Origin: an uncultured delta proteobacterium
GTDB lineage: Bacteria > Desulfobacterota > RBG-13-43-22
Length of the DNA: 64,000 nt
Direction of reading: 5' to 3'
NCBI GenBank assembly: GCA_963746605.1
Contig: CAVVCH010000054.1
Span: 21,366-85,365, forward strand
In this document: one piece after another, positions 4,529-64,000 of the stretch
Position numbering within the stretch: the first letter of the stretch is position 1
Layout of the letters: each line of letters opens with the position of its first letter
Made by a program: the position numbers and the translations under genes
Notes under the pieces: generated by a model
Told to the model about the DNA's origin: nothing
Seen by the model: only the letters and a program-made list of their open reading frames with translations
The model's database searches: none

Positions 4529-4638
4529 TTTTTTTAAAGCCTACGATTTAGAGGAGCACGCTAAAGGGTTTCGCTGTTATAAATCCTGAAAGTACCCACA
4601 ATAAGAGGTGTTCGCAAAAAGTCCGGCAGAAAGTGCCT

Positions 4639-4747
4639 GTCATTCTGAGCGAAGCGAAGAATCTCGTTTTTTAAACAGGTTGTAAAATCCTTCGCGGAGT
4701 TTACCCTGAGCCAAAGTCGAGATCCTTCGCTTCGCTCAGGATGACAG
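4639..4747. repeat. Family A palindromic element (GTCATTCTGAGCGAAGCGAAGAATCTCG ... CGAGATCCTTCGCTTCGCTCAGGATGAC)
   Basis: 28-bp inverted arms at 4639-4666 and 4719-4747; related copies at 13550, 27262, 56245 and 63744. Confidence 0.65.
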
Positions 4748-4898
4748 ACGAAGGGATCAAAGTAACACTCTAATACTTTCTGCGAGGTTAAACATATAGA
4801 AACCAAGACTATTTTAGAGAATATCGATGGGATAAACAAGCCTAACTTTTTAGACCTTTCCCTTGTTTTAATTTTCCCCCTATAGTATTTTTCCCTTC

Positions 4899-5488
4899 AT
4901 GGATTGGAATGAATTTACCCGGGGGCTTTTTCGGCTGGCCGAACCTTATTTAAAGATAAGAGGCGATCTCCCTCACGCCCAAGTTTCTCACCGCTATGCG
5001 TTGCGCTTGCTGGAAGAAGAGGGGGGCGAATCGCGCATTGTGGAGCCGGCCGTCATTTTACATGATGTGGGCTGGTCGGAACTGGAACCCGAACAAATCA
5101 AGATCGCTTTCGGGGTGCGGGCCGGGGGGAGGAGGCCGAACGGCTCAACCGGATACACGAACAGGCCGGAGCGGCTATTGCCCGCCGGGTGCTGCAATCC
5201 CTGAACTACCATCCTCACTGGATCGAGAGGATTGTTTTTCTAATTGAACGCCATGACTCAGGAGACCGGGCCGAGTCCCTGGAAGAACAGATAGTGAAGG
5301 ATGCCGACAAGCTCTGGCGGTTTTCTCCCCTGGGCTTCTGGAAAGAGATTGAACGGCAAGGCCTGGGGCGGGAAGAACTGTATCGGTATCTATCGGCCCG
5401 GTACCGCCGCTGGTTTTTTACGCCAACCGCGGTGAAATTGGCCGGGGAAGAATTGAGGGACCGGGGGGAGGAAATCGCCGGGAATTAA
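4899..5488 (+). CDS. HD-domain phosphohydrolase, interrupted by a frameshift in a G-run near 5120-5135
   Basis: ORFs 4899..5204 (HAQVSHRYALRLL...ILHDVGW) and 5189..5488 (IERHDSGDR...VKDADKL) are the two halves of one HD domain in different frames. Confidence 0.6.
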
Positions 5489-8170: not shown

Positions 8171-10266
8171 ATGAAATTTTTTTTTGAACCCCGGGGAGTG
8201 GCTGTCATCGGCGCCACGCCCAAGCCCAACACCGGCGGCTTAAGTCTGATCACCAACCTGACCCTGGGCTACGACGGCCCGATTTACCCGGTCAACCCCC
8301 GTTACTCGGAAATCGTCGGCCTCCCCTGTTACCCGCGCATATCCGAAGTCCCCGATCCCATCGAATTGGCCCTGATCTTCGTTCCGGCCCCCGGCGTACC
8401 CTCCGTGCTGGAGGAATGCCTGGCCCGCGGCTTGAAAGGGGCCATCATCGAATCCGGCGGCTTTGCCGAAGTGGGTCCCGAGGGAAAGGCCCTTCAGGAC
8501 CGCTGCCTGGAAATCGCCCGCCGGGGCGGAATGCGGCTCTGGGGTCCCAACTGCATGGGACTGATCGATATCCGGAAACGATATGTTTTTTCCTTTCTCA
8601 CCCCGGATGCCTGGCAGGATGTGTTAAACCCCGGGGGCGTCTCGCTGATCGTTCAGAGCGGCCTGCTGGCCGGCGGTTTTATGACCACCCTCATGAGCCA
8701 TAAGACCCTCGCCCTGGCCAAGGCCTGCTCCATCGGCAATAAAAGCGACGTGGATGAAACCGATCTGCTGGAATATTTCTTGGAAGATGCCGACACCCGG
8801 GTCATCGCTCTCTACGTCGAGTCGTTCCCCCGGGGGCGGCGTTTTTTCGATCTGGCCTCCCAGGGGAAAAAACCCATCGTGGTGCTCAAGGGGGGTAAAA
8901 GCGCCTCCGGCGCCCGGGCAGCCGCTTCCCACACGGCTTCACTGGCCGGGAACTTTGAACTGGTCCGGGGCGCGCTGGACCAGGCCGGGGTTTATCAGGC
9001 CGATGATTTTTTTGAGCTGGTGGACCTGGCCCGGACCCTGGAAATGGATTTCGTTCGGGACCGGCCCGACGAAGGGAAAACCCCGGGTGGGTGTCTTTAC
9101 CTTCAGCGGGGCCGCCGGGATCGTGACCAGCGATCACCTGGAGGCCGAGGGCCTGACGCTGGCCACCCTTTCTCCGGAAACCCGGCAGCGGTTGGAACAA
9201 TATTCTCCCTCTTGGATGCCGGTGAACAATCCGGTGGATTTCTGGCCGGCCATGGAAAAACATGGTCCGGAGATCACCTACCGGGAAGGGCTGGCCGCCC
9301 TGGTGAACGATCCCGGGGTGGACGGGATCATCGTTCATCTTTTTGCCGGGTTCGGGGTCTGGTTCCTGGATATGGAAAAAATTCTGTCCGGCCTCCCACG
9401 ACCCTGCAAGCCCATCCTTTTCTGGGTCATGGGCCATGAGAAAGGTTTTCAGGCCACCCGGCTGGCCATCGAAAAACAGGGCTTCCCGGTCTTCAACGAA
9501 ATCCAACGGGTGGTCCGGGTGCTGGCCGGAATTCTGGAAGGCCGGGAAACAGGAGCCGTTGCCCCCGAAAAACACACTCTCCCGGATTGAACCGCTGCTC
9601 CGACAGATAAAACAAGCGATCGAAGTCCGCCCGGAAAAGGTTCTGGATGAGTGGGAGTCCAAAAAGATACTCCGGGAATTGGGCTTGGCCACCGTGCCGG
9701 AAATCCTCGTCGAGGACCTGCCGGGCGCCCTGGAAGCAGCCCATTCCTTCGGCTACCCGGTGGTGCTTAAAGGCCGGTCACCGGGTCTGGTCCATAAGAC
9801 CGAGGCCGGCCTGGTTCGACTCGACCTCCACACCCCGGAACAGCTGCAATCCGCATTCCGGGAAATGACCGCCCGCCCAAATCCTCCCGCCTCTTTTATG
9901 GTTCAACCGCAGCTCAAAGGCGACCTGGAATTAATCGTCGGGGTGGTCAGGGACCCTCAATTCGGGCCGGCGGTGATGCTGGGCCTGGGGGGGATCCGGG
10001 CCGAAATTTACCGGGATGTGGTCTTTCGCCTGGCTCCGGTAACTGAGGAAACCGTCCGACGCATGGCGGAAGGGTTGAAAGGTCAGGTACTTTTCCAGGG
10101 CTATCGGGGGGCCGCCCCGGTGAAGATGGATTTATTAGCAGAATGGTTGATTCGTTTGGGAGAATTGGCCTGCCAGGTGGAGGCCATCCAGGAAATCGAC
10201 GTGAATCCCCTGTTGGTGGTGCAGGGAGAGCCGATCGCCGTGGATGCCTCCATTATTCTAAGATGA
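8171..10266 (+). pseudogene. Acetate--CoA ligase (ADP-forming) / CoA-binding family protein split into three ORFs by two frameshifts
   Basis: ORFs 8171..9439, 8754..9590 and 9343..10266 carry, in order, the CoA-binding domain (VAVIGATPKPNTGG), the central domain and the ATP-grasp domain; frame changes near 9080 and 9575 coincide with homopolymer runs. Confidence 0.7.
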
Positions 10267-13707: not shown

Positions 13708-15394
13708 CTACTCCGCCGCGGGAGGGAAGTAGAGAACAAAGCTGGCGCCCGAGCCGACAGTGCTTTCCACCTGGATCCACCCCTTGTGATCCTCCAGGAC
13801 TTTCTTGGCCATGGAAAGACCCAGTCCGATCCTTTTATCGGAGACCCTGGTCGTGAAAAAGGGTTCAAAAATCCGGTTCAGATCTTCTTCCTTAATCCCT
13901 TCGCCGGTGTCGCTTACCTTGACCGTCGCATAGGCCGACCCGTTGACCGTCGCTGTACCCGTGGCCACAGATAGCCGGCCTCCGTGCGGCATAGCGTCGA
14001 TGGCATTGAAAATAAGATTCTCGACCGCCACCAGGAACAACTCCCTTTCCCCCTCGATGGGCGGCACGTCTCCCAAGGACCGCTCTATGGATATGGAGCG
14101 CTCTTTACACAGCTCCTCGAAAATCCCCAGGGCTTCCCGGACAATGTCTTTCAGGTCGCACCTCTCCGGGCGGGCGGCTTGGCCCCAGGATAAAGAAAGG
14201 ACGTTTCGCAATATGATTTCCAGGCGGCCGACCTCGGCCAGAATAAATTTCGTATACTCCTTCTCTTTAGACCCTTCGGGAATCTTTTTGTCGAGTCTCC
14301 TGACGAATCCGCCGACGGCGGTCAGGGGGTTTCTGATTTTGTCGGCCACACTGGCGGTTATTCTGCCCGAGGGCCGCTCTTTTCTCCGCCTCGGCCAATT
14401 CCTCCTTAAGCCGGCTTTTCTCCATTTCGGCTTGCTGACGCATCATCACGGCGGCCAGGGTATCGGCCACGGCCGCCAGGAACCTCTCTTCCTCCAAGGT
14501 TTTTTCGTGGCTTTCTTCGATGGAGATGATGATCAGTCCCAGCGTCTGTCCGGCTGAGGCAATGGGCAGGCAATAATAGCCGTGCGGAAATTGAACGGGC
14601 CGTTGGATTCCCTGTTTTCCGTCCAAACATTCCGTACGGGCCGTCGTACAGGTTGAGATGTCTTTCCCGCACAGGCATTGGCCGAAGGAGATCCTGGCGC
14701 AGGGAGGGGGCATTTCGGGAAGGGTGCGCCAGGCTTTTAAAACCAGGACTTCCGGTTCGTTTTCGACTGTATAGATGCTTCCCTGGCCTTGGGAGGAAAG
14801 GCCGGGGATCATCAAAATCAGGTCCAGTACTCTGTTCAACTGCTCTTCCAGGGAAATCGGCTCCAAGGAAATCTTGAGCACGGAGCTGATGGCCGTCTGG
14901 ATCCGGTAATTCCGCTCAATCTGCAATTCCGCCTGCTTGCGTTCCGTGACGTCTCTAATCGAGGCAATGACCAGCAATTCCCCGTTCGTCTCGATCGGAC
15001 TCAGACTGATGTCAGCCGGGAATTCGGTCCCGTCTTTTCTGAGTCCGTAGATATTAAGGGCGGCTCCCATGTTTCGAACACGGGGATGCGAAAAGTAGTC
15101 GGCCACATTCTTTCTATGGTTGAGGCCATATCTTTCCGGAATCAGGAGGTGAAGGTCCTTACCAATCAAATCTTCATCGGAGTATCCGAATAATTTCTCC
15201 GCCTGGGCATTGGCGAGAACAATCCGGGCCTCTCGATTGACGAAGAACATGGCGTCCGGGGTCGATTCCACGAGTTTATCGTATTTGCCCTGGATGGCCT
15301 GCTTTTCCCAACCGCACCTATCGAGTAACTGAAGTTGCCGGCGCATTTTTTCCAGTTCCTGCGATAGTTGCTCTCTGGTCATGCGTTTTTTCAT
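13708..15394 (-). CDS. PAS/GAF-containing sensor histidine kinase, one frameshift near 14350
   Basis: ORF 14267..15514 carries the PAS and GAF regions, ORF 13708..14349 the HisKA/HATPase_c part (IRNPLTAVGGF, DTGEGI); likely start MKKRMT at 15394. Confidence 0.75.
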
Positions 15395-15734
15395 AATATC
15401 TCCATTGGATTTGCGGATGCGAATTATTATAATGATATTTTTCCATTTATCTCCAAAAAAAGAATGAGGGCCCGACGTGGTCTTTCGCCTCGATCCCGAT
15501 CGGGCGCGAAGCAATTAAGGCTATGATTTCCAAGCAAAAGGGGCAGACCCAGCCGGAAGGCTTTTGCGGGATGGCCCCCGTCAATCTGGACCTCCTGGCA
15601 GACCGTCCTCACTGGTTTAGGTGAATCGGGGATGGCCGCGGGCGGCCTCCTGGGAACCGGTCTTTTATGAATGGATCCAACCAACCGAGGCCCTCGTTTC
15701 ACCCCATACGGTTTTCCCGTTTGAACAACGGGTT

Positions 15735-16609: not shown

Positions 16610-17500
16610 GGTTCTGGCAAAAATCAGCCCCTCCCCACACCACCTAGCATGCGGGTCCGCACTAGGCGGTTCCCAGAGGCTACCGAGCCGTAGCCGGGTA
16701 ATGGATGTTTACCCACTGATCTTTGACAGACAGCAAACCTTGATCCTTGAGTCACGCCAAGGCGTGATCATGCCTGTCTGGGTGGCCAGCGTGCGTGAGA
16801 GTCGCCAGGGGCCTTTCCGGCTCATCCCGACCGAGATAGCGGTCCGCAGGTGTTCATTGGGATTGGGCTTATCGGCAACGCGCCGGCCACTCGCTCCCCC
16901 GGACGGGTTTATGGCGATGGTCGAGCTTACCGGGCCTTTTCCCTGCTCTGGGTTCGGTCCTTCGTTCGTTGATGGCGAACTACTATGACCTCGGCTGACT
17001 CCTGCCCGGTCAATCGACATGTTTCCAGGCCGGATGCTGTCCAATGTTAACTGGACCGCCTGCCGAACAGGTCTCCCCGGACTCAGTTCAGTACTCCCTC
17101 AGGGGTTAAGACGTGATCTGTCGTTACACAACCGCGGCATTTACCGCGTCTCCTAAACCCGGGGCTTTGTCATGTCGTGCTGACTTACCCGGAGACTTGG
17201 CCTTGTATGCCATTTCTGTACCCCGGATCAGGTCCGGGGCAGGCTTGGCTCATAGCTTTGCGCTCCAGCTTCCTTCGGACGATCCCTCGCGAGCATCGCC
17301 CTTGCTTTCGGCTAGTATTTATGTTCCTGTCTTACGACAGTACGGGTTTACATCAGGGGACTTTCACCCCATAAGATCACGCCCATGCCGGGCGTACACT
17401 AGAATCGTTCGCACCGGATCGGCACCGCTACCCCGGGACAAAACGCGGACATGAAGCTGGTCTCGTGACAAAATGGTCGAGGCTACCGATGGAAAGGATT
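16610..17500. other. ORF-free GC-rich segment of about 0.9 kb; candidate structured RNA or decayed element
   Basis: Six-frame ORFs here give only Pro/Arg/Ser/Gly-rich non-protein-like translations; many local hairpins, e.g. CCCCGGA-ucagg-UCCGGGG at 17221-17239. Confidence 0.2.
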
Positions 17501-18363: not shown

Positions 18364-18906
18364 ATGAGCCGACCTTTGCGCATCCGATATCCCGGGGCGG
18401 TATATCACGTCACCTGTCGGGGCAATGACCGTCAGGACATCTTCCGGGACGATACGGACCGGACGGAGTTCCTGGAAATCCTGGCGGGGTCCCAAACCAT
18501 CTATAACGTGAAGATGTACGCCGCGGTTTTGATGGGGAACCATTTTCATTTGCTGCTGGAGACCCCTCTGGGCAATCTGAACGAATTCATGCGGCGGTTT
18601 AACATCACGTATACCGGCTATTTCAACCGCCGGCACCGGCGGGTGGGCCACTTGTACCAGGGCCGATATAAAAGCATTCTGGTAGAAAAAGAGAGCTATC
18701 TGTCCGAGCTGTCCCGTTATATCCACTTGAACCCGGTCCGGACCCGAGAGCTGGAATCGGAGAACGCCAAAGTCCGGTGGCACTATCTGCTGGACTATCC
18801 CTGGAGCACCTTCCCGGGATATTTGAATGCCAAAGACCGATGGCCGGGGGTGGATTACGGGTTGGTCTTAGGTGAATTCGGCGTGGACAACCCGAATAAA
18901 AGATAA
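18364..18906 (+). CDS. Y1 HuH transposase-like protein (IS200-like fold), truncated paralog
   Basis: 180 aa nearly identical to the first 170 aa of ORF 20843..21823 (HVTCRGN, HFHLLL, YQGRYKS); diverges after ...EFG and ends early. Confidence 0.7.
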   Translation: MSRPLRIRYPGAVYHVTCRGNDRQDIFRDDTDRTEFLEILAGSQTIYNVKMYAAVLMGNHFHLLLETPLGNLNEFMRRFNITYTGYFNRRHRRVGHLYQGRYKSILVEKESYLSELSRYIHLNPVRTRELESENAKVRWHYLLDYPWSTFPGYLNAKDRWPGVDYGLVLGEFGVDNPNKR

Positions 18907-20842: not shown

Positions 20843-21823
20843 ATGAGCCGACCTTTGCGCATCCGATATCCCGGGGCGGTATATCACGTCACCTGTCGGG
20901 GCAATGACCGTCAGGACATCTTCCGGGACAATACGGACCGGACGGAGTTCCTGGAAATCCTGGCGGGGTCCCAAACCATCTATAACGTGAAGATGTATGC
21001 CGGGGTTTTGATGGGGAACCATTTTCATTTGCTGCTGGAGACCCCTCTGGGCAATCTGAACGAATTCATGCGGCGGTTTAACATCACTTATACCGGCTAT
21101 TTCAACCGCCGGCACCGGCGGGTGGGCCACTTGTACCAAGGCCGATATAAAAGCATTCTGGTAGAAAAAGAGAGCTATCTGTCCGAGCTGTCCCGTTATA
21201 TCCACTTGAACCCGGTCCGGACCCGAGAGCTGGAATCGGAGGACGCCAAAGTCCGGTGGCACTATCTGCTGGACTATCCCTGGAGCACCCTACCGGGATA
21301 TTTGAATGTCAAAGACCGATGGCCGGGAGTGGATTACGGGTTGGTTTTAGGTGAATTCGGCGGGGACAACCCGAAGGGACGGCGTGGTTATGGAAAACGG
21401 ATCCGAGAGGACCTCGTCGGGGGCATCGAACTGAAAGGAAAAATAGTCGGCGGGTGTGTTCTGGGCCGGGCGGGTTATATCCAATGGGTCCGGGAAAAAC
21501 ACATTAAGGAACTGCCGGTCGGGGATTACACCGGATATAAAGCCTTGAAACGCTATCGATCCAAGGAGCAGGTCCTGGATTTGCTGGCAGTAGAAACCGG
21601 CCTGAGTTTGGAAGAGGTTAAATCTTCCAAGGGGGACCGGCGCCGGTTGGCCATGGAATTGCTGTACCGGGTGGGCGGATTGACCGGAGACGAGATCGGA
21701 AGCCTTTTCGGGATAGGCGCCAGCGCAGTCAGTCAGGAAAGGAAAAGGCTGGTGTCCCGAATGGCGGAAGATGAGGCCGTGAAAAAGCTGTTTGAGGAAC
21801 TGTTTTCGAAATGTTCGGTATAG
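20843..21823 (+). CDS. Y1 HuH transposase-like protein with C-terminal DnaA-like HTH domain, full-length paralog
   Basis: 326 aa; HuH motif HFHLLL, tyrosine region YQGRYKS, C-terminal ...GLTGDEIGSLFGIGASAVSQERKRL. Confidence 0.75.
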   Translation: MSRPLRIRYPGAVYHVTCRGNDRQDIFRDNTDRTEFLEILAGSQTIYNVKMYAGVLMGNHFHLLLETPLGNLNEFMRRFNITYTGYFNRRHRRVGHLYQGRYKSILVEKESYLSELSRYIHLNPVRTRELESEDAKVRWHYLLDYPWSTLPGYLNVKDRWPGVDYGLVLGEFGGDNPKGRRGYGKRIREDLVGGIELKGKIVGGCVLGRAGYIQWVREKHIKELPVGDYTGYKALKRYRSKEQVLDLLAVETGLSLEEVKSSKGDRRRLAMELLYRVGGLTGDEIGSLFGIGASAVSQERKRLVSRMAEDEAVKKLFEELFSKCSV

Positions 21824-27243: not shown

Positions 27244-27261
27244 GTTTGGTGCTCCTTCCTT

Positions 27262-27325
27262 CGCAGAGTTTACCCTGAGCCGAAAACCGAGATCCTTCGC
27301 TTCGCTCAGGATGACAGCAGGCGAA
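27262..27325. repeat. Family A repeat unit
   Basis: CAGAGTTTACCCTGAGCCGAAAACCGAGATCCTTCGCTTCGCTCAGGATGACAG. Confidence 0.6.
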
Positions 27326-27395
27326 GGGCTCAGAATCACGGTTCGGGACTTTTTGCGAACATAATCCAAAATGGCGCTCGTGACCGGGAAAAAAG

Positions 27396-30824: not shown

Positions 30825-30956
30825 GGGGGCTGACCCGGCTCTGAAAAATTGCCCTTCCGCTCCCTGCCTGGGTGAGGGCCGGGAGCGGGGGGCCGCCCCG
30901 CTTCGGCCTGACTTTCCCTCCCTCATCATGATCCCGCGAAGATACTGACTGAAAAG

Positions 30957-31043
30957 ATGAACGTCGAACATCGAACTTCCAACATCGAATGTTGAATGAA
31001 TGGAGTCTTGTTTTTCATTCGACATTGGGCGTTCGATGTTCAT
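30957..31043. repeat. Family D palindromic element (GAACATCGAAC ... GTTCGATGTTC)
   Basis: ATGAACGTCGAACATCGAACTTCCAACATCGAATGTT...CGTTCGATGTTCAT; second copy at 41518-41657. Confidence 0.65.
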
Positions 31044-41509: not shown

Positions 41510-41517
41510 AACGAAAA

Positions 41518-41657
41518 ATGAACATCGAACATCGAACTTCCAACATCGAATGTTTAATGAAAAAGATGAAGAAGCAGAAATAGGGATCCCCTGTTCGGCA
41601 ATAGAGGTTTGTTTTTCATTCGAGGTTGGACGTTCGATGTTCGATGTTCGACGTTCA
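41518..41657. repeat. Family D palindromic element
   Basis: ATGAACATCGAACATCGAACTTCCAACATCGAATGTT ... GACGTTCGATGTTCGATGTTCGACGTTCAT. Confidence 0.65.
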
Positions 41658-41686
41658 TTTTGTACAAGAAAAAGAGACCCTGAGCG

Positions 41687-48607: not shown

Positions 48608-48757
48608 AATGGTTGCAAGTTGCTGGTCTGGACTTGATCCTGGATCCAGGCAGCTCGAAGCTTGAAAGGCCTGGATTCCGGCTTCCGCCGGAATGACGAA
48701 CCTTCAATAAGCTAATCAATTTTCATGCTTCGTGGGTGTCCGCCCCGGGCATGGGGG

Positions 48758-48855
48758 TTTAATACGAAAATAACCAAAGACAGGGTTCAAGGGGTCGAGT
48801 GTAGGGGAGGGGTTAATCCCCTCCCGCACCCAGCCGGGCATAAATCATACTCCTG
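48758..48855. repeat. Family B composite element containing palindrome GTAGGGGAGGGGTTAATCCCCTCCC
   Basis: TTAATACGAAAATAACC...GGGTTCAAGGGGTCGAGTGTAGGGGAGGGGTTAATCCCCTCCCGCACCCAGCCGGGC; paralogous copy at 57011-57176, palindrome again at 63861-63885. Confidence 0.65.
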
Positions 48856-48946
48856 GACTCGAAAACCCGTCGGCCATCCCAGATATTAGGGGAGTACCGA
48901 CCCAAAAGGGCGAAACATAAATCACCGAAGAAAGGAGGTGAAGCGG

Positions 48947-49195: not shown

Positions 49196-50242
49196 ATGCA
49201 GACCGACCACCCCTTTGATTTCTTTTTTCAATGGCATCTGACCGAAAAATGCAATCTTCATTGCCTCCACTGCTATCAGGAAAAAGGGCCATTGGAGGAA
49301 TTCACTTTTTCTGAAATCAAAGAAACCCTGAACGAGATATCGCTCATGCTGGAAGACTGGTCGAAGAGCTATGACCTGGCTTTCCAGACCAGCATCAATG
49401 TTACCGGAGGGGAGCCTTTCTTACGACCCGACCTGTTCCCCATTCTCGAGGAAATGATTCAACACGGGTATGACCTTTATCTCCTGTCCAACGGGACCCT
49501 CCTGGACCGGGATAAGGCCCGCCGTCTAAGCCGCCTGCCGGTTCGGGGAGTCCAGGTCAGCCTGGAAGGGCTGGAAAAGACCCATGAGGCCCTCCGGGGA
49601 AAAGGCAGTTTTGCCGGAGCGGTAAAAGGGATCGAGTACCTGGTGGAAGCCGGGATTCCGGTCACCATCAATACCACCTTATCCGAGATCAACCGGGAAC
49701 AGTTTTTGGAGATGATACCCTTGGCCCAGGCCTTGGGAGCCCAGCGGTTGGGGTTCTCCCGATTGATCCCCGCTGGCCAGGGAGCCCTGCTTTCTTCCCA
49801 ACTGTTAAAACCGGATCAAGTCCGAGGACTTTACCAGGAAATCCATTCCCTCGCTCCCCGCGGATTGGAACTGGTCAGCGGTGATCCGCTTTATCGGCAA
49901 CTGGATTCAGGCAATGATCAGGAAGACCTGGGAAACATCCCTCGCGGTGGGTGCGCGGCCGGGGTGTCCGGTTTGACCTTGATGGCCGACGGAACGGTGA
50001 CTCCCTGCCGCCGGTTACCGGTCCCCCTCGGGAACGTGCGCCAGGACTCCCTGCGTGAACTTTGGAGCAATTCTCCGGTGTTGGAAATGCTGCGGGATAA
50101 AACCAGTTACCAAGGAAAATGCGGCCGCTGCCGCAGATGGGCCGCCTGCCGGGGATGCCGCGCCATGGCCTACGCCTTTTCCCGGGCCGGCGGCCACAAC
50201 CATCTGGTCGACGAAGACCCGCAATGTTTTTTGGAGCCCTAG
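49196..50242 (+). CDS. Radical SAM/SPASM domain protein (AhbD/NirJ/PqqE-like)
   Basis: 348 aa; CNLHCLHC (CxxxCxxC) cluster, C-terminal Cys-rich SPASM region (GGCAAG...CGRCRRWAACRGC...DPQCF). Confidence 0.85.
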   Translation: MQTDHPFDFFFQWHLTEKCNLHCLHCYQEKGPLEEFTFSEIKETLNEISLMLEDWSKSYDLAFQTSINVTGGEPFLRPDLFPILEEMIQHGYDLYLLSNGTLLDRDKARRLSRLPVRGVQVSLEGLEKTHEALRGKGSFAGAVKGIEYLVEAGIPVTINTTLSEINREQFLEMIPLAQALGAQRLGFSRLIPAGQGALLSSQLLKPDQVRGLYQEIHSLAPRGLELVSGDPLYRQLDSGNDQEDLGNIPRGGCAAGVSGLTLMADGTVTPCRRLPVPLGNVRQDSLRELWSNSPVLEMLRDKTSYQGKCGRCRRWAACRGCRAMAYAFSRAGGHNHLVDEDPQCFLEP

Positions 50243-50271
50243 ATGCCCTTTCAATCGGAGGTAACGAGCCG

Positions 50272-52438
50272 ATGAACTCCCCCAGCGATCCATACCCCCC
50301 GGGATGCGCTTTCCCCCTCGGGGCCACTGTCGGCCCGGAGGGCGTCAATTTTAGCGTCTATTCCAAAAACGCAGACAAAGTGGACCTGCTTCTGTTCGAC
50401 CGGGCCGATGACGCTCGACCGGCCCGGATCATTTCCCTGGAACCAAATAAAAACCGGACTTATTTTTACTGGCATGTCTTCGTCCCCGGCCTGTCTTGCG
50501 GACAGATTTACGGCTATCGTGTTTTTGGCCCTTATGAACCGGAAAAAGGGCTGCGTTTTGACGGCCAAAAGGTTCTGCTGGATCCCTACGGAAAGGCCTT
50601 GGCAACGCCGCTTAATTACAGCCGTCTGGCCGCCGGCCTTCCGGGAGACAACACGGCCACGGCCATGAAGAGCGTGGTGGCGGATTTGAGCCTTTACGAT
50701 TGGGAGGGGGACGCGCCGCTTCGACGCCCTTTTTCCAATACCATTATCTATGAACTGCACGTCCGGGGGTTTACCCGTCATCCCAGTTCGGGTGTGCCAG
50801 CCGGATAAGCGGGGCACCTACGCCGGGTTGATCGAGAAAATCCCCTACCTGCAGGATTTGGGAATCACCGCCGTGGAACTGCTACCGGTCTTTCAATTCG
50901 ATGAACAGGATGCGCCCCCCGACTTCAAGAACTACTGGGGCTACAGCCCGGTCAGCTTCTTCGCCCCTCACGGGAGTTACTGCTCCTGCCGAGACCCCCT
51001 CGGTCCGCTGGATGAATTCCGGGATATGGTCAAGGCCTTGCACCGATTTGGGATCGAGGTGATCCTGGACGTGGTCTTTAACCACACGACCGAAGGGCAC
51101 GAATTCGGTCCGACGCTTTGCTACCGCGGTTTTGAAAACCGGGCCTACTACATCCTGGAAGCCGCCACCGGCCGGTACGCCAACTATTCGGGCTGCGGCA
51201 ATACCCTCAATTCCGGCAACTCCATCGTCCGACGGATGATCATCGATAGTTTGCACCACTGGGTCAAGGAGATGCACGTGGACGGCTTCCGTTTTGATCT
51301 GGCCGCCATTCTCTCCCGAGATGAAACCGGCCAACCGCTCGCCAATCCCCCGGTCCTCTGGGATATTGAATCCGACCCGGTCCTGGCCGGCACCAAGCTG
51401 ATTGCCGAGGCCTGGGACGCAGCCGGCCTTTACCAGGTAGGCAGCTTTGTCGGAGAAAGTTGGAAGGAATGGAACGGCAAGTTTCGGGATGATGTGCGGG
51501 GTTTCATCAAAGGCGATAGCGGCGTCGTCCCCTCGGTGGCCTCCCGTCTGTTGGGCAGCCCGGACCTTTATGGCGGGCAGGAACGCGAGCCGGAACAAAG
51601 CATCAATTTCATCACCTGCCACGACGGTTTCACCCTGAATGACCTGGTCTCTTACAACACCAAACACAACGAGGCCAACGGCGAGGAAAACCGCGACGGG
51701 ACCGACGACAACCTGAGTTGGAACTGCGGGGTGGAAGGTCCCACGGATAACCCGGAAATCGAAAAGCTCCGCAACCGCCAGGTAAAAAACTTTATGACCA
51801 TCACCCTTTTGGCCCTCGGGGCCCCCATGCTGCTCATGGGCGATGAGGTCCGGAGGACCCAGCAAGGCAACAACAACGCTTACTGCCAGGACAACGAAAT
51901 CAGTTGGTTTGATTGGGACCTGCTGGCTAAACACGGGGACCTGCACCGTTTCGTCAAGAACCTGATTGCGGCCCGCCTGCACACGGACACTTTCACTCCC
52001 AGCCAGGAGTTAACCTTGAGCCAGATCATCAGGCAGGCCCGTATTCATTGGCACGGGGTCAAACTCAGCCAACCCGATTGGAGTCCGGATTCCCATAGCC
52101 TGGCCTTGACGGTCTGGAGCCGCCGAGGCCGGCTGTTGACCCACATCATGTTGAACGCCTACTGGGGGCCCCTGGCCTTTGAACTACCGCCCGTTCAGAA
52201 CCTGCAGGGCAAGGCCTGGCACCGGTGGATCGACACCGCGCTGGATCCCCCCGAGGACATCGGCACTTGGGCTCACGCCCCTGCCGTTTCCGGATCTACC
52301 TACCCGGTGCAGCCCCGATCCATCGTGGTCCTGATGGAACGGATTGCGAAAGGATGTCGCCTAACAAGGAAAATGGACGATAATACGATATCTTTTGAAC
52401 GGTCCGTGACAGGATCGTCATTCCCGCAGCGCTTCTGA
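50272..52438 (+). CDS. glgX: Glycogen debranching enzyme GlgX, one frameshift near 50790-50810
   Basis: ORF 50119..50808 from MNSPSD holds the N-terminal domain; ORF 50750..52438 holds the GH13 catalytic domain (GFRFDLA, EAWD). Confidence 0.8.
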
Positions 52439-56244: not shown

Positions 56245-56424
56245 GTCATCCTGAGCCTTTCGCCTGCGGTCATCCTGAGCCGAAGCGAAGGATCTGGATT
56301 CTCGGCTCGGAAAGACTCGGAAGGATCTCGGTATTCGGCTCAGGGACTCGCGAAGGATCTCGTCTTTCGAGCCCAAAGCTCGCCAAAGGGATTCTTCAGT
56401 TGCTTCGCTCCTTCAGAATGACAG
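56245..56424. repeat. Cluster of family A repeat units
   Basis: GTCATCCTGAGCC... GTCATCCTGAGCCGAAGCGAAGGATCT ... CTTCAGAATGACAG. Confidence 0.6.
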
Positions 56425-56833: not shown

Positions 56834-57010
56834 GCGTACTCACCTCCTTCCCTGAGTAATTATTGAAACTGATCGTATTTTCAAAATCTATAGAAAAAAG
56901 CTATCAATAATGAATTTGCCTGTCAAGTTTCAATCCATGCTCAATGACAAAATAACCTGCTTATTGGTGAAAAATACAGGGTTTACCCCATAAGGATCAA
57001 CCATGGTAGT

Positions 57011-57176
57011 TTAGTACGAAAATAACCGAATAGGGTACGAGGGAACCAGGGTTCAAGGGTTCGAATGTAGGGGAGGGGTTCATCCCCTCCCGGACCCAGC
57101 CGGGCCTATATCATGCCCTGGGAAAAATCTGAATCCTTAATTCCCAAGCTCGGGAGGGGGTTAACCCTCCCCTACT
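57011..57176. repeat. Family B composite element (paralog of 48758-48855) with two GGGAGGGG-TTAA-CCCCTCCC palindromes
   Basis: TTAGTACGAAAATAACC...GGGTTCAAGGGTTCGAATGTAGGGGAGGGGTTCATCCCCTCCCGGACCCAGCCGGGC...CGGGAGGGGGTTAACCCTCCCCTAC. Confidence 0.65.
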
Positions 57177-59271: not shown

Positions 59272-59288
59272 AGGAATTCATCGATTGA

Positions 59289-59428
59289 CAGGCGGGCGGG
59301 GATAAACCCCGCCACGATGAGATCCTCCCAGCTTGGGTAAACACGGTGAATAGGCGGGCGGGGATAAACCCCGCCCTACGGCAACACTCGTCCGAGCAAG
59401 GTAGGGGCGGGGTTTATCCCCGCCCGCA
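59289..59428. repeat. REP-like elements (GGCGGGCGGGGATAAACCCCGCC), two direct and one inverted copy
   Basis: Copies at 59291-59313 and 59353-59375, inverted copy GTAGGGGCGGGGTTTATCCCCGCCCGC at 59401-59427; the same unit recurs at 59926-60008. Confidence 0.7.
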
Positions 59429-59444
59429 GAAGCCCATATAACCA

Positions 59445-59925
59445 TTGAAAAACTTGCAGGAAAGAAAAAGAATTCGACTGTCACGAAGCGCGTATGAGGA
59501 GGGCCAGGCCTTCTCCATTACCATAACCACAGCAGAAAGGTATCCATGGTTTAAAATCCATGGACAACTTGCAGACACGAGCATATCCCTGATCTCTGAC
59601 CCTGTCCCAAGAACGGGAGGCCGTGGTTTTTGCTTGGTGCATTATGCCGGATCATATCCACCTGCTCTTGCAGGACAATAATATCCTTGATCTGGTCCGT
59701 TTGCTCAAAGGAAGGCTTACCCCTGAAGCCCGTGGACTGGAACCTGGACGAGCCTTGTGGCAACGCAGCTTTTATGATCACGCCTTACGAAAAGAGGAAG
59801 CACTAGAGGATGTTGCCCGTTACATTTGGGAGAATCCGGTCCGCGCCGGAATAGTTGGTCGAGCTTCGGCCTATCCCTGGTCTGGTTCTCTGGTTTGGCC
59901 CGATTGGAAGGAATTCGTCGATTGA
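59445..59925 (+). pseudogene. REP-associated tyrosine transposase (RAYT, IS200-like Y1), frameshifted
   Basis: ORF 59445..59681 (...GQAFSITITTAERYPWF) and ORF 59623..59925 (WCIMPDHIHLLL HuH motif; WQRSFYDH catalytic Tyr region); flanked by REP doublets. Confidence 0.7.
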
Positions 59926-60008
59926 AGGCGGGCGGGGATAAACCCCGCCCCTACATTTCTCAAGACCGGGGTTTCCCGTAGGGGCGGGGTTTATCCCCGC
60001 CCGCCCGA
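59926..60008. repeat. REP-like elements, inverted pair
   Basis: GGCGGGCGGGGATAAACCCCGCCCCTAC ... GTAGGGGCGGGGTTTATCCCCGCCCGCCC. Confidence 0.7.
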
Positions 60009-60219: not shown

Positions 60220-61446
60220 ATGAAAAAAACTTTACTTTTCGCATTGGTCTTGGGCTTGGCCGTAATGTTTGCCGTTCCGGCGTTCGCCTTCAAGATCGAG
60301 AGCGGCAAAGACACGAGCTTTTATTTTGGTGCCCTGGCCTATACGGACCTCGGTGCTTGGAATCGTAGCAAGGAATTAGCCCCGGGCGGCAAAAGCGACA
60401 GAACCGAGCTCGTGTTAGACGTTCCCCGCCATTCCCGTGTCCGAGGAAACCTGGACGTCGGCAATGTGGGCGCCTATTTTGAAGTCCGTTTGGGTGGCGA
60501 CCAGCAACTAGTCCAACGCCGGTAATGCCGCTTTCTCCAGCTCCGGTTACTATTTTGTTGAAAGCGCTAAACTCTATGGGTATTTCAAGTTTGGGAATTG
60601 CACCTTACTGGCCGGCAAGACCGACGGTCATTTTTATTCCGTGGCCCCTTATCAGAACTTAGGGTTCGATAACAATAACCACATCGCCGGTTTCGGCTGG
60701 GGCAACGTGTACGATCAACGGAACGCCCAGGTTCGTTTCTCCTCGGATCCTTCCAAGGCCTTCGGATACGACATTTCCCTGGTCCAGCCCCAGTACTATC
60801 AGGATAATGGCCTCGGACAAGTAGCTACTGGTGGCCAACCAATCCCTGGGCACCTTCCCCCTTACCGCTCTTAAATTGCGGATGAACTTCGGCATGGTTT
60901 CCCTGATGCCGGCCGGCTACGTCCAATACATCAAATGGAATGATTTACAGCAGCTCCCTAACGGCTCCCAGCCCGATGACAACATGACCTCTTGGGCCGT
61001 GGTGTTGCCGGTCGTGGTTAAGGCCGGGGCCTTTACGGGTACTTTCCAGGGTCTCTACGGAATAAACATCGGTTCCGCTCGTTTCTCCGGTTGGCGGCCC
61101 GTTGGCCTTGCAGAGCACCTTTCATGGGTATCGGAGAGATGTTAACGGGGCCGTTAAAAATACCACAGGCTACAACGGGTTTGCCGACTTGGCCTTCACC
61201 GCCGGGGCGGTTACGCCTCACTTCTATATCGGCTGTGACAGGGCCCAGAACGACGACGTCTATGTGGGCGACAAGTACAATGTCCGCATGATGTACGGTG
61301 CGGCCGTCAACTGGAAGATCGCGGATAGCTTCTACATCGTTCCGGAATTCACCTATTACGATTACGGGAAGAACCCGCTCGCTCCCAACAACCCCGATCT
61401 GGGCAAGGAATGGTTGGGCGGCGTGCAGTTCCAGTTTGTATTCTAA
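60220..61446 (+). pseudogene. Outer-membrane beta-barrel porin split into four ORFs by three frameshifts
   Basis: Signal peptide MKKTLLFALVLGLAVMFAVPAFA; successive ORFs 60220.., 60641.., 60831.., 61102.. end with ...GGVQFQFVF (C-terminal Phe typical of OM barrels). Confidence 0.6.
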
Positions 61447-63067: not shown

Positions 63068-63687
63068 AAAATCCGTTCTAACGCCGGTCCTGTGGGGACT
63101 GGGGATGATTTTGTTTTTATCCGGATGGTCGACCGATCTCCGGGCCCAGGACAAAAAGTGGATCAAGAAGGGGGATGCCTTTCCGGAAGTGGCCCTGAAA
63201 ACCCCGTCCCAGGCCAAGGATAAGGCTTACCTGGGAATTTCCGGCGGCGACAACTTTCACGGTCAAAGACCTGAAGGCCGAAGTCATTTTAGTGGAGATA
63301 TTTGACGTCTATTGCCTGCCCTGCCAGAAACAGGTGCCCCTGTACAAACAATTGTTTGGCATGATTCAGGCGAATCCGGCCGTCCGGGATCAAATCAAAA
63401 TGATCGCTATCGCCACCGGGAACGACGAGGGAGAGATCAAAAAGTTTCAGGATCATTACCAAGTGCCCTATCCCATTATCTCCGATCCCAAATTCGTCCT
63501 CCATGAGGCGGTGGGAGGCCCCCCGGCCCCCTTTTCCATTATTGTGCGAAAAGAGCCCGGAGGAAAAACCGCCCTGGTGGCCGACACGCATTTGGGCTTT
63601 AACAATGATATGCAGGGGCTGTTCAAGCAACTACAATCTCTGGTGCGGTCGGCGCCGCCGTCACCGACCTCTCAGCCCAAGAAGTAG
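63060..63687 (+). CDS. Thioredoxin-like (TlpA/redoxin) protein, frameshift near 63290
   Basis: ORF 63060..63305 gives the signal peptide and N-terminus; ORF 63292..63687 has the CLPC active site (CxxC) and redoxin fold. Confidence 0.65.
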
Positions 63688-63743: not shown

Positions 63744-64000
63744 TTCGTTTCACTCAGGGTGACAGGCAGCCGAAGGACTCCTTTTCTTGTCATTCTGAAG
63801 GAGCGGAGCGACGGAAGAATCCCCCAAGCCGGCTTGGATGACCCCTCGCAGAGTTTTTCGTAGGGGAGGGGTTAATCCCCTCCCGATCTTGGGAATCTGG
63901 GGTTTAGTGGGTGCGGGAGGGGATTAACCCCTCCCCTTCAGCTGGAGTCACGCCTGGGCGTAACGACTGAAGAGGGTAGGCCCTGAGCCGAAAACCGAGA
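63744..64000. repeat. Composite of family A and family B repeats running to the window end
   Basis: CTCAGGGTGACAG, GTCATTCTGAAGGAGCGGAGCGACGGAAGAATC, GTAGGGGAGGGGTTAATCCCCTCCC, GGGAGGGGATTAACCCCTCCCC, CCCTGAGCCGAAAACCGAGA. Confidence 0.65.

What the first reader, a model, noticed from the sequence alone, without database searches (positions are those of the whole stretch)
59289..60008. RAYT transposase flanked by inverted REP doublets; the RAYT gene is frameshifted
An IS200-like Y1 transposase of the REP-associated type (HuH motif HIHLLL, WQRSFYDH tyrosine region) is bounded on both sides by GGCGGGCGGGGATAAACCCCGCC units in direct and inverted orientation, the classic RAYT-REPIN arrangement. 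The gene needs a frame change near 59600-59630, so it is either inactive or affected by an assembly indel.
Basis: partly seen in the sequence, partly recalled or inferred. Interest (0 to 1): 0.45.

Follow-up and report, generated by a model that had tools for sequence, protein, structure and literature searches.

The report
REP transposase gene with flanking REP hairpins
This is an ordinary REP-associated tyrosine transposase (RAYT) gene flanked by its hairpin repeats, and its single-base frame break is one of at least ten in this window, so it is more likely a sequence error than a dead gene.

Summary
At 59445-59925 (+) lies a 159-codon Y1/HUH transposase gene. Once one base is removed, its product passes NCBI's curated REP-associated tyrosine transposase model (98.9 bits, cut-off 80). 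Its best solved-structure match is E. coli TnpA-REP (4ER8).

Five copies of GTAG-tagged REP hairpins (GTAGGGGCGGGGTTTATCCCCGCCC) flank it: three upstream and two downstream. They form two inverted doublets (REPINs).

The frame break is real in the sequence. It is one extra base at 59595-59599, judged against three intact, syntenic orthologues (87-89% protein identity).

The break is not special to this gene. The window holds at least ten frame breaks in otherwise conserved genes, and nine are of the +1 type. Five of the six breaks at 59.4-63.7 kb (the RAYT's and four others) were aligned at base level against relatives with intact genes, and each is a single extra base in the window. The RAYT shows no relaxed selection: dN/dS is 0.13-0.17, also after the break. 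I therefore read the frameshift as probably an assembly or sequencing indel (about 0.7), otherwise a very recent mutation.

The 'WQRSFYDH' motif is conserved but does not hold the catalytic tyrosine, which is Y126 in 'RYIWENP'.

This is a known kind of system and of low interest.

The parts
59272..59289 (+). Direct repeat of the last codons of the RAYT gene (AGGAATTCATCGATTGAC against AGGAATTCGTCGATTGAA at 59909-59926). It sits just 5' of the first upstream REP.
   Evidence: family D2; 59909-59949 against 59272-59313, 95% over 42 nt. Also present upstream in orthologues L001 and L003.
59291..59313 (-). REP copy a. The hairpin is intact but the GTAG tag is lost (the reverse complement reads CGTGGCGGGG...). 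The orthologues have one REP copy fewer in this upstream array, so this copy or copy b is an extra copy.
   Evidence: folds at -10.8 kcal/mol.
59353..59379 (-). REP copy b, the left arm of the upstream REPIN. It reads ...CCCCGCCCTAC, with a C-run one base shorter than the other copies.
   Evidence: I5.
59401..59427 (+). REP copy c (GTAGGGGCGGGGTTTATCCCCGCCCGC), the right arm of the upstream REPIN, 17 nt before the RAYT start codon.
   Evidence: The same position and orientation occur in L001-L003, L124 and L125.
59445..59594 (+). RAYT gene, N-terminal 50 codons. The TTG start is homologous to the start of the intact orthologues.
59595..59599 (+). Site of the single extra base (+1) that breaks the RAYT reading frame.
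   Evidence: alignment with L001-L003.
59596..59925 (+). RAYT gene, C-terminal 109 codons plus stop. Holds HUH (H70-I71-H72), the WQRSFYDH motif, catalytic Y126 and N130.
59927..59954 (-). REP copy d, the left arm of the downstream REPIN. It starts 2 nt after the RAYT stop codon.
   Evidence: (I3).
59978..60005 (+). REP copy e, the right arm of the downstream REPIN.
   Evidence: (I3).
48801..48826 (+). Dispersed REP of variant family B (GTAGGGGAGGGGTTAATCCCCTCCCG), with a compensatory C>A / G>T change in the stem. Intergenic.
57067..57092 (+). Dispersed family-B REP, intergenic.
63860..63940 (.). Family-B REPIN: two inverted family-B REPs (63860-63885 on +, 63911-63940 on -), intergenic.
   Evidence: folds at -29.5 kcal/mol, z -7.1.

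Best explanation
What it is. This is a REPtron: a single RAYT gene (a Y1/HUH single-strand DNA nuclease related to IS200/IS605 TnpA) embedded between its own REP hairpins.

How it most likely works. This is inferred from the E. coli TnpA-REP biochemistry and structure. The enzyme binds the REP hairpin on single-stranded DNA, reads the 5' GTAG tag base-specifically, and cuts and rejoins the strand using the HUH-bound metal and Y126. That activity generates and maintains REP and REPIN copies elsewhere in the genome. The gene itself stays put and is inherited vertically.

The frame break. A single extra base at 59595-59599 most likely comes from an indel error in the assembly, not from biological inactivation. 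The real gene is then an intact 159-codon ORF.
For: Shown:
- NF047646 REP_Tyr_transpos scores 98.9 bits (cut-off 80), while the IS200 model scores only 18.6 (cut-off 55).
- The best PDB hit is 4ER8, E. coli TnpA-REP, at E 1.4e-7. HUH, Y115 and N119 align to H70/H72, Y126 and N130.
- GTAG plus an 8-bp G/C stem and a 5-nt loop, folding with z -3.7 to -10.
- The layout of a (+) REP upstream and a (-) REP downstream recurs around homologues from 90% to about 48% identity.
- The gene order OYE reductase - RAYT - porin-like gene is conserved in L001, and in L002 and L003 as far as those short contigs reach, at 77-88% nucleotide identity. This fits vertical inheritance.
- The same 25-mer is dispersed in other genomes. 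118 of 120 loci have no RAYT within the fetched stretch of at most 8 kb, and there are 55 inverted against 13 direct adjacent pairs.

For the artefact reading:
- Frame breaks are also found in the porin-like gene (3), the AhpC-like gene (1), ADP-forming acyl-CoA synthetase (2), a histidine kinase (1), GlgX (1) and an HD-domain gene (1).
- Nine of the ten breaks are +1.
- All five breaks that I aligned at base level to a relative are single extra bases in the window. One of those relatives is a contig 97% identical over 1146 nt, with that base as the only gap.
- The RAYT has dN/dS of 0.125-0.172 against intact orthologues, compared with 0.086-0.161 among them. Downstream of the break it is 0.127-0.196, with no further stop or indel.
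Against: - No reads are available, so a real 1-nt insertion cannot be excluded.
- The extra bases are mostly not in homopolymers, which is not the textbook signature of any one platform.
- Many long genes in the window are intact, so the breaks are clustered rather than uniform.
- The source genome was not recovered, so genome-wide abundance of this REP in this organism is unmeasured. Within the window, the exact A-type REP occurs only next to the RAYT.
- Cleavage activity and mobilisation are inferred from E. coli, not shown here.
Confidence: 0.7

Rival explanations
1. The frameshift is real. The RAYT was inactivated very recently by a 1-nt insertion, leaving an orphaned REP/REPIN population that will now decay.
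For: The extra base is in the sequence as given and is not in a homopolymer. No database entry holds an intact protein identical to the corrected one; the best is 89-91%. Low dN/dS is also compatible with a very recent event.
Against: This requires that at least nine other conserved genes in 64 kb were broken at about the same time, nearly all by +1 events. From general knowledge, spontaneous bacterial indels are biased towards deletion. A 97%-identical contig lacks the one neighbouring break it covers. There is no second lesion in 330 nt downstream of the break.
Confidence: 0.22
2. The break is a programmed +1 ribosomal frameshift or transcriptional slippage site that regulates transposase dosage, as in some insertion sequences.
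For: Only the general precedent of recoding in transposase genes (own knowledge). All window breaks but one are +1.
Against: The three closest orthologues encode the protein in one frame, with no shift at this site. There is no slippery run and no in-frame stop or rare-codon pause at 59590-59600; frame A stays open to 59681. The other +1 breaks lie in unrelated housekeeping-type genes at sites with no evident common motif.
Confidence: 0.02
3. It is an autonomous IS200/IS605-type insertion sequence whose ends are the hairpins, not a domesticated RAYT.
For: It has the Y1_Tnp fold and flanking subterminal hairpins, as in IS200/IS605.
Against: The IS200 equivalog model scores 18.6 bits against a cut-off of 55, while the RAYT model passes. 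The closest PDB match is TnpA-REP, not IS608 or ISDra2 TnpA. The same chromosomal position is kept in relatives at 77-88% nucleotide identity. The hairpins are GTAG-tagged REPs that occur away from any transposase gene in other genomes. No second copy of the gene lies in the window; the two other Y1 genes are only 28% identical.
Confidence: 0.03

Closest known systems
E. coli TnpA-REP / RAYT (YafM; PDB 4ER8) with its REP/BIME 'REPtron' (Messing et al. 2012, PMC3479197; Ton-Hoang et al. 2012, from my own knowledge)
   Same: Y1/HUH nuclease of about 160 aa. HUH, the catalytic Tyr on helix alpha-D and the Asn four residues later are conserved in the alignment. REPs are hairpins with a 5' GTAG tag and flank the gene.
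   Different: The phmmer hit to 4ER8 is weak and partial (34.7 bits, residues 50-146). The H123 equivalent is Ala here. The hairpin is a perfect 8-bp G/C stem with no bulge, whereas the E. coli REP needs its mismatch for binding. The REP sequence is unrelated apart from GTAG.
REPIN-RAYT systems of Pseudomonas fluorescens and enterobacteria (Bertels & Rainey 2011, PMC3116915; Bertels et al. 2017, PMC5581495; RAYT Groups 2 and 3)
   Same: Inverted REP doublets with a short spacer next to a RAYT that keeps a fixed chromosomal position in relatives.
   Different: Group membership was not determined, because no reference sequences were held. The REPIN copy number in this genome is unknown. Homologues come from metagenomes, and those that carry a taxon name are Desulfobacterota-type, not Gammaproteobacteria.
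GTAG-tagged REP superfamily (Di Nocera et al. 2013, PMC3733652)
   Same: A short stem-loop tagged at one end by GTAG. It occurs as singletons and as head-to-head or tail-to-tail dimers, it is intergenic, and it flanks RAYT genes.
   Different: This exact sequence was not found in the main text of that paper or anywhere in the searched library. Supplementary tables were not checked.
IS200/IS605 TnpA (IS608, ISDra2; PDB 2XM3, 2XO6)
   Same: Same fold and chemistry, with hairpin plus guide-sequence recognition on single-stranded DNA.
   Different: Only marginal sequence similarity (E 0.02). It fails the IS200 model, has no tnpB, and does not behave as a multicopy element.

Membership tests
REP-associated tyrosine transposase (RAYT) | Sequence passes a curated RAYT profile and not the IS200 profile | tested here: met
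   NF047646 scores 98.9 bits against a cut-off of 80. NF033573 (IS200) scores 18.6 against 55. The query was the frame-corrected protein.
REP-associated tyrosine transposase (RAYT) | HUH metal-binding motif | tested here: met
   H70-I71-H72 aligns to H59-M60-H61 of 4ER8. It is invariant in 12 homologues.
REP-associated tyrosine transposase (RAYT) | Catalytic tyrosine on helix alpha-D, with a metal ligand four residues later | tested here: met
   Y126 and N130 align to Y115 and N119 of 4ER8. Both are invariant in alignment A1 (where they are numbered Y128 and N132 because that query carried two extra residues).
REP-associated tyrosine transposase (RAYT) | Gene flanked by REP hairpins carrying a 5' GTAG tag, in inverted orientation | tested here: met
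   A (+) REP lies at 59401-59427 and a (-) REP at 59927-59954. The same layout occurs in L001, L124 and L125 and in many of the metagenome loci; the close orthologues L002 and L003 carry the upstream REPs, with the downstream copy degenerate or replaced.
REP-associated tyrosine transposase (RAYT) | Flanking repeat is over-represented elsewhere in the same genome | tested here: inconclusive
   The source genome was not found. In the window the exact REP occurs only at the gene, while the variant B occurs at three other intergenic sites. In other genomes the 25-mer is dispersed.
REP-associated tyrosine transposase (RAYT) | Single copy and vertically inherited (fixed position) | tested here: inconclusive
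   The position is conserved in L001-L003. Homologues at or below 69% identity sit in other contexts. Copy number in the genome could not be tested.
REP-associated tyrosine transposase (RAYT) | Intact open reading frame | tested here: not met
   As written, one extra base at 59595-59599 splits the ORF. I judge this a probable sequence error.
REP-associated tyrosine transposase (RAYT) | Binds and cleaves single-stranded REP DNA | not testable with these tools
   This needs biochemistry. It is known only for the E. coli enzyme.
REPIN | Two REPs in inverted orientation separated by a short spacer, able to form one long hairpin | tested here: met
   59353-59427, 59927-60005 and 63860-63940, with fold z-scores of -8.4, -10.1 and -7.1.
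REPIN | A population of many copies replicating within the genome | not testable with these tools
   This needs the whole source genome.
IS200/IS605 insertion sequence | Transposase passes the IS200 model and the element is multicopy | tested here: not met
   It scores 18.6 bits against a cut-off of 55. There is no second copy in the window.

The most novel reading that the evidence does not exclude
The exact 25-nt REP (GTAGGGGCGGGGTTNATCCCCGCCC) is shared by genomes labelled as about ten phyla. These include cultured isolates: Desulfacinum infernum, Rheinheimera soli and Actinobacillus indolicus.

It also flanks RAYTs that have diverged to below 50% identity, and the stem variants are only compensatory.

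This could be an unusually frozen protein-DNA recognition pair, or a RAYT/REP unit that moves between phyla. Either would run against the picture of strictly vertical, lineage-specific REPs. I found no paper naming this sequence.
Probability: 0.25. Interest if true: 0.45.

Novelty: new member of a known kind. Interest (0 to 1): 0.15.

Why it matters
It matters little for biology. This is one more RAYT/REPIN locus, here in an uncultured lineage whose named RAYT homologues are Desulfobacterota-type, with the textbook layout.

The practical point is a caution. This window carries about one frame break per 6 kb, almost all +1. Any 'pseudogene' or 'frameshifted gene' call made from this window should be treated as a likely sequence-quality artefact until reads are checked.

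The wide distribution of the same REP 25-mer across distant taxa is a modest lead for people studying how RAYTs and REPs co-evolve.

Tried and rejected
- Finding the source contig by exact-protein look-up. I tried the OYE gene, a 650-aa gene and the 100-aa RAYT fragment, and none is on record. Only the 130-aa neighbour gave a hit, a 97%-identical 1.1-kb contig.
- The genome-contig scan with the REP 25-mer.
- The metagenome-contig scan for RAYT relatives. It found no conspecific copy covering the break; the best hit is the 90% orthologue already held.
- A shared sequence motif at the insertion sites, such as a GATC next to the RAYT break. I saw no consistent context across the five sites aligned at base level, but I did not test this formally.
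- A reverse-transcriptase ORF for the group II intron fragment at 15.5-17.0 kb. None was evident in three-frame translations.
- Programmed frameshifting and the autonomous-IS reading. Both were considered and rejected (see rivals).
- RAYT group (1-5) assignment and a phylogeny. Not attempted, because no reference sequences were held.

Full report
**What is in the sequence**

Region 59272-60005 holds a short gene between G/C-rich hairpin repeats. The 19-nt core GGCGGGGATAAACCCCGCC occurs exactly five times. Three copies lie upstream of the gene (59295 and 59357 on +, 59406 on -) and two lie downstream (59931 on +, 59983 on -). It occurs nowhere else in the 64 kb, against 0.02 matches expected by chance.

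Read on the strand that carries the tag, each full unit is GTAG + GGGCGGGG + TTTAT + CCCCGCCC. The units pair into two inverted doublets. The first is 59353-59427, with 23-nt arms that are 100% complementary. The second is 59927-60005, with 28-nt arms that are 100% complementary.

As single-stranded DNA, a single unit folds at -11.7 kcal/mol (z -3.7). The doublets fold at -35.2 and -42.1 kcal/mol (z -8.4 and -10.1). The first upstream copy has lost its GTAG tag. The second has a C-run one base shorter than the others.

**The gene**

Frame A (59445-59594) reads LKNLQERKRIRLSRSAYEEGQAFSITITTAERYPWFKIHGQLADTSISLI. Frame B (59596-59925) continues LTLSQEREAVVFAWCIMPDHIHLLLQ...WQRSFYDHALRKEEALEDVARYIWENPVRAG...KEFVD*.

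- The joined protein matches Pfam Y1_Tnp (32 bits, cut-off 23).
- It passes NCBIfam NF047646, 'REP-associated tyrosine transposase', at 98.9 bits against a cut-off of 80.
- The IS200 model reaches only 18.6 bits against a cut-off of 55.
- The best solved structure by sequence is 4ER8, E. coli TnpA-REP (E 1.4e-7). The IS608 and ISDra2 transposases are marginal at E about 0.02.

In that alignment H70-I71-H72 match H59-M60-H61. Y126 and N130 (ARYIWENP) match the published catalytic Y115 and the metal ligand N119. That motif is conserved in the family but is not the catalytic tyrosine region.

**The frame break**

A search of 5.8 billion proteins found 464 homologues. The three closest are 87-89% identical over the full query length. 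Two are intact 159-aa proteins. The third was called as 185 aa from an upstream start, with the same 159-aa core.

Their contigs were fetched as L001-L003. L001, at 7.5 kb, carries the full gene order of the window: a 422-aa OYE-type flavin reductase, the RAYT, then a porin-like gene. The short contigs L002 and L003 each carry the RAYT and one of those neighbours.

At the nucleotide level the window reads CTGATC-TCTGA-CCCTG where all three orthologues read CTGATC-CTTG-CCCTG or a close variant. The window therefore has one extra base at 59595-59599.

**Is the break biological?**

The break is not special to this gene.

- Against the proteins of L001 and L002, the porin-like gene (60220-61446) changes frame three times. 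The AhpC/thioredoxin-like gene (63105-63684) changes frame once.
- Elsewhere in the window, Pfam domains that normally sit in one polypeptide are split between overlapping ORFs.
  - An ADP-forming acyl-CoA synthetase (8171-10266) has two breaks.
  - A PAS-GAF histidine kinase (15514-13708, minus strand) has one break.
  - GlgX (50119-52438) has one break.
- An HD-domain gene (4899-5488) shifts in a G-run near 5120-5135.
- That makes at least ten breaks in 64 kb. From the ORF coordinates, nine are +1 and one is -1.
- Five breaks were aligned at base level to a relative. These are the RAYT break, porin breaks 1-3 and the AhpC break. In each, the window has a single extra base.
- The strongest case is L126, a metagenome contig 97% identical over 1146 nt. 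Its only gap is the extra base at about 61078, which causes the third porin break.

After the extra base is removed, the RAYT has dN/dS of 0.125-0.172 against the intact orthologues. Those orthologues give 0.086-0.161 among themselves. The 109 codons downstream of the break give 0.127-0.196, with no further stop or indel.

From general knowledge, natural bacterial indels are biased towards deletions. A near-exclusive run of 1-nt insertions across unrelated conserved genes looks like a technical signature. I put about 0.7 on an assembly or sequencing indel and about 0.2 on a real, very recent mutation.

I reject programmed frameshifting. The orthologues need no shift, there is no slippery or pausing context, and frame A stays open to 59681.

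**The REP family beyond this locus**

Within the window, a variant REP (GTAGGGGAGGGGTTAATCCCCTCCC) has a compensatory C>A / G>T exchange in the stem. It lies at three other intergenic places: 48801, 57067, and an inverted doublet at 63860-63940. In one homologous locus (L124) both an A-type and a B-like REP flank the same RAYT.

By my own estimate, well under one match is expected by chance in 596 Gb.

- Most hits are in Desulfobacterota.
- Others are labelled Rokubacteria, Acidobacteriota, Planctomycetota, Gammaproteobacteria (Rheinheimera, Actinobacillus, Haemophilus), Firmicutes and further groups.
- 118 of the 120 places have no RAYT within the fetched stretch of at most 8 kb.
- Adjacent copies are mostly inverted: 55 inverted against 13 direct.

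RAYT homologues recovered from metagenomes at 90% down to about 48% identity are flanked by this same sequence or by stem-compensated variants. The (+) copy lies upstream and the (-) copy downstream. The copy number in this organism's own genome could not be measured, because the source genome was not recovered.

**How it most likely works**

This part is inferred from the E. coli system (PMC3479197) and the REPIN literature. The RAYT binds the REP hairpin on single-stranded DNA and reads the GTAG tag base-specifically. It cleaves and rejoins the strand through the HUH-bound metal and the tyrosine. This spreads REP doublets while the gene itself remains a fixed, vertically inherited locus.

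The sequence motifs, the flanking architecture and the conserved chromosomal position in close relatives are shown here. Binding, cleavage and mobilisation are inferred.

One difference from E. coli is worth noting. The stem here is a perfect 8-bp G/C helix, whereas the E. coli enzyme needs a mismatch in its REP stem for binding.

**Comparison and verdict**

This is a RAYT/REPIN ('REPtron') locus of the known kind. It is a new member, because the nearest protein on record is 89-91% identical. The 'frameshifted RAYT' is probably an artefact of a window that carries many +1 indels.

Interest is low. The one lead of some wider interest is the cross-phylum identity of the REP sequence. I did not find it named in the searchable literature.

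Noticed in passing
window 4899-5488, 8171-10266, 13708-15514, 50119-52438, 60220-61446, 63105-63684: There are at least nine further frame breaks in conserved genes: HD-domain, ADP-forming acyl-CoA synthetase (2), histidine kinase, GlgX, porin-like (3) and AhpC-like. All are +1 type except the HD gene, which is -1 in a G-run. This suggests systematic indel noise in the assembly.
   Followed up: partly
window 48801-48826, 57067-57092, 63860-63940: A second REP family (GTAGGGGAGGGGTTAATCCCCTCCC) differs from the RAYT-flanking REP by a compensatory stem change. The copies at 48750-48856 and 57002-57121 share a longer repeat of about 120 nt at 78% identity.
   Followed up: partly
Genome-contig loci L004-L123: The exact 25-nt REP occurs in genomes labelled as many phyla, including the cultured isolates Desulfacinum infernum DSM 9756, Rheinheimera soli and Actinobacillus indolicus. 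In Rheinheimera sp. YQF-1 (L016) it forms an 81-nt-period array next to three RAYT-like genes only 26% identical to this one.
   Followed up: partly
window 59272-59289 and 59909-59926: The last 16-18 nt of the RAYT ORF (GGAATTCGTCGATTGA) are repeated just upstream of the first 5' REP. The same is seen in orthologues L001 and L003. This suggests that the upstream REP arose by duplication of the gene's 3' end together with its REP.
   Followed up: partly
window 18364-18906 and 20843-21823: Two paralogous longer Y1_Tnp genes are 97% identical over 588 nt. The first is truncated at 180 aa. The second is 326 aa with a weak C-terminal helix-turn-helix match. They are 28% identical to the RAYT and fall just below the RAYT model cut-off (69-74 bits against 80). 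A DUF6998 gene lies between them.
   Followed up: partly
window 16957-17296 (-): Two Rfam group II intron domain hits (D1-D4-3 at 93 bits, D1-D4-1 at 63 bits) lie in a 2.2-kb stretch with no long ORF. No reverse-transcriptase ORF was evident downstream.
   Followed up: partly
window 41514-41661 and 30953-31041; L003 1277-1401: A palindromic MITE-like repeat occurs at two window sites. A related copy sits just downstream of the RAYT in orthologue L003, where the window has its downstream REPIN.
   Followed up: no
window 4637-4759, 27257-27339, 56245-56357: Another short intergenic repeat family, at 88% identity and partly self-complementary.
   Followed up: no
L124 4001-4498; L125 4001-4525: More distant RAYT homologues (69% and 62% identity) sit inside defence loci. 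One lies between hsdM and hsdS of a type I restriction system. The other lies between type III-A csm genes and a CARF/Card1 nuclease gene. Both still have the same REP on each side.
   Followed up: no
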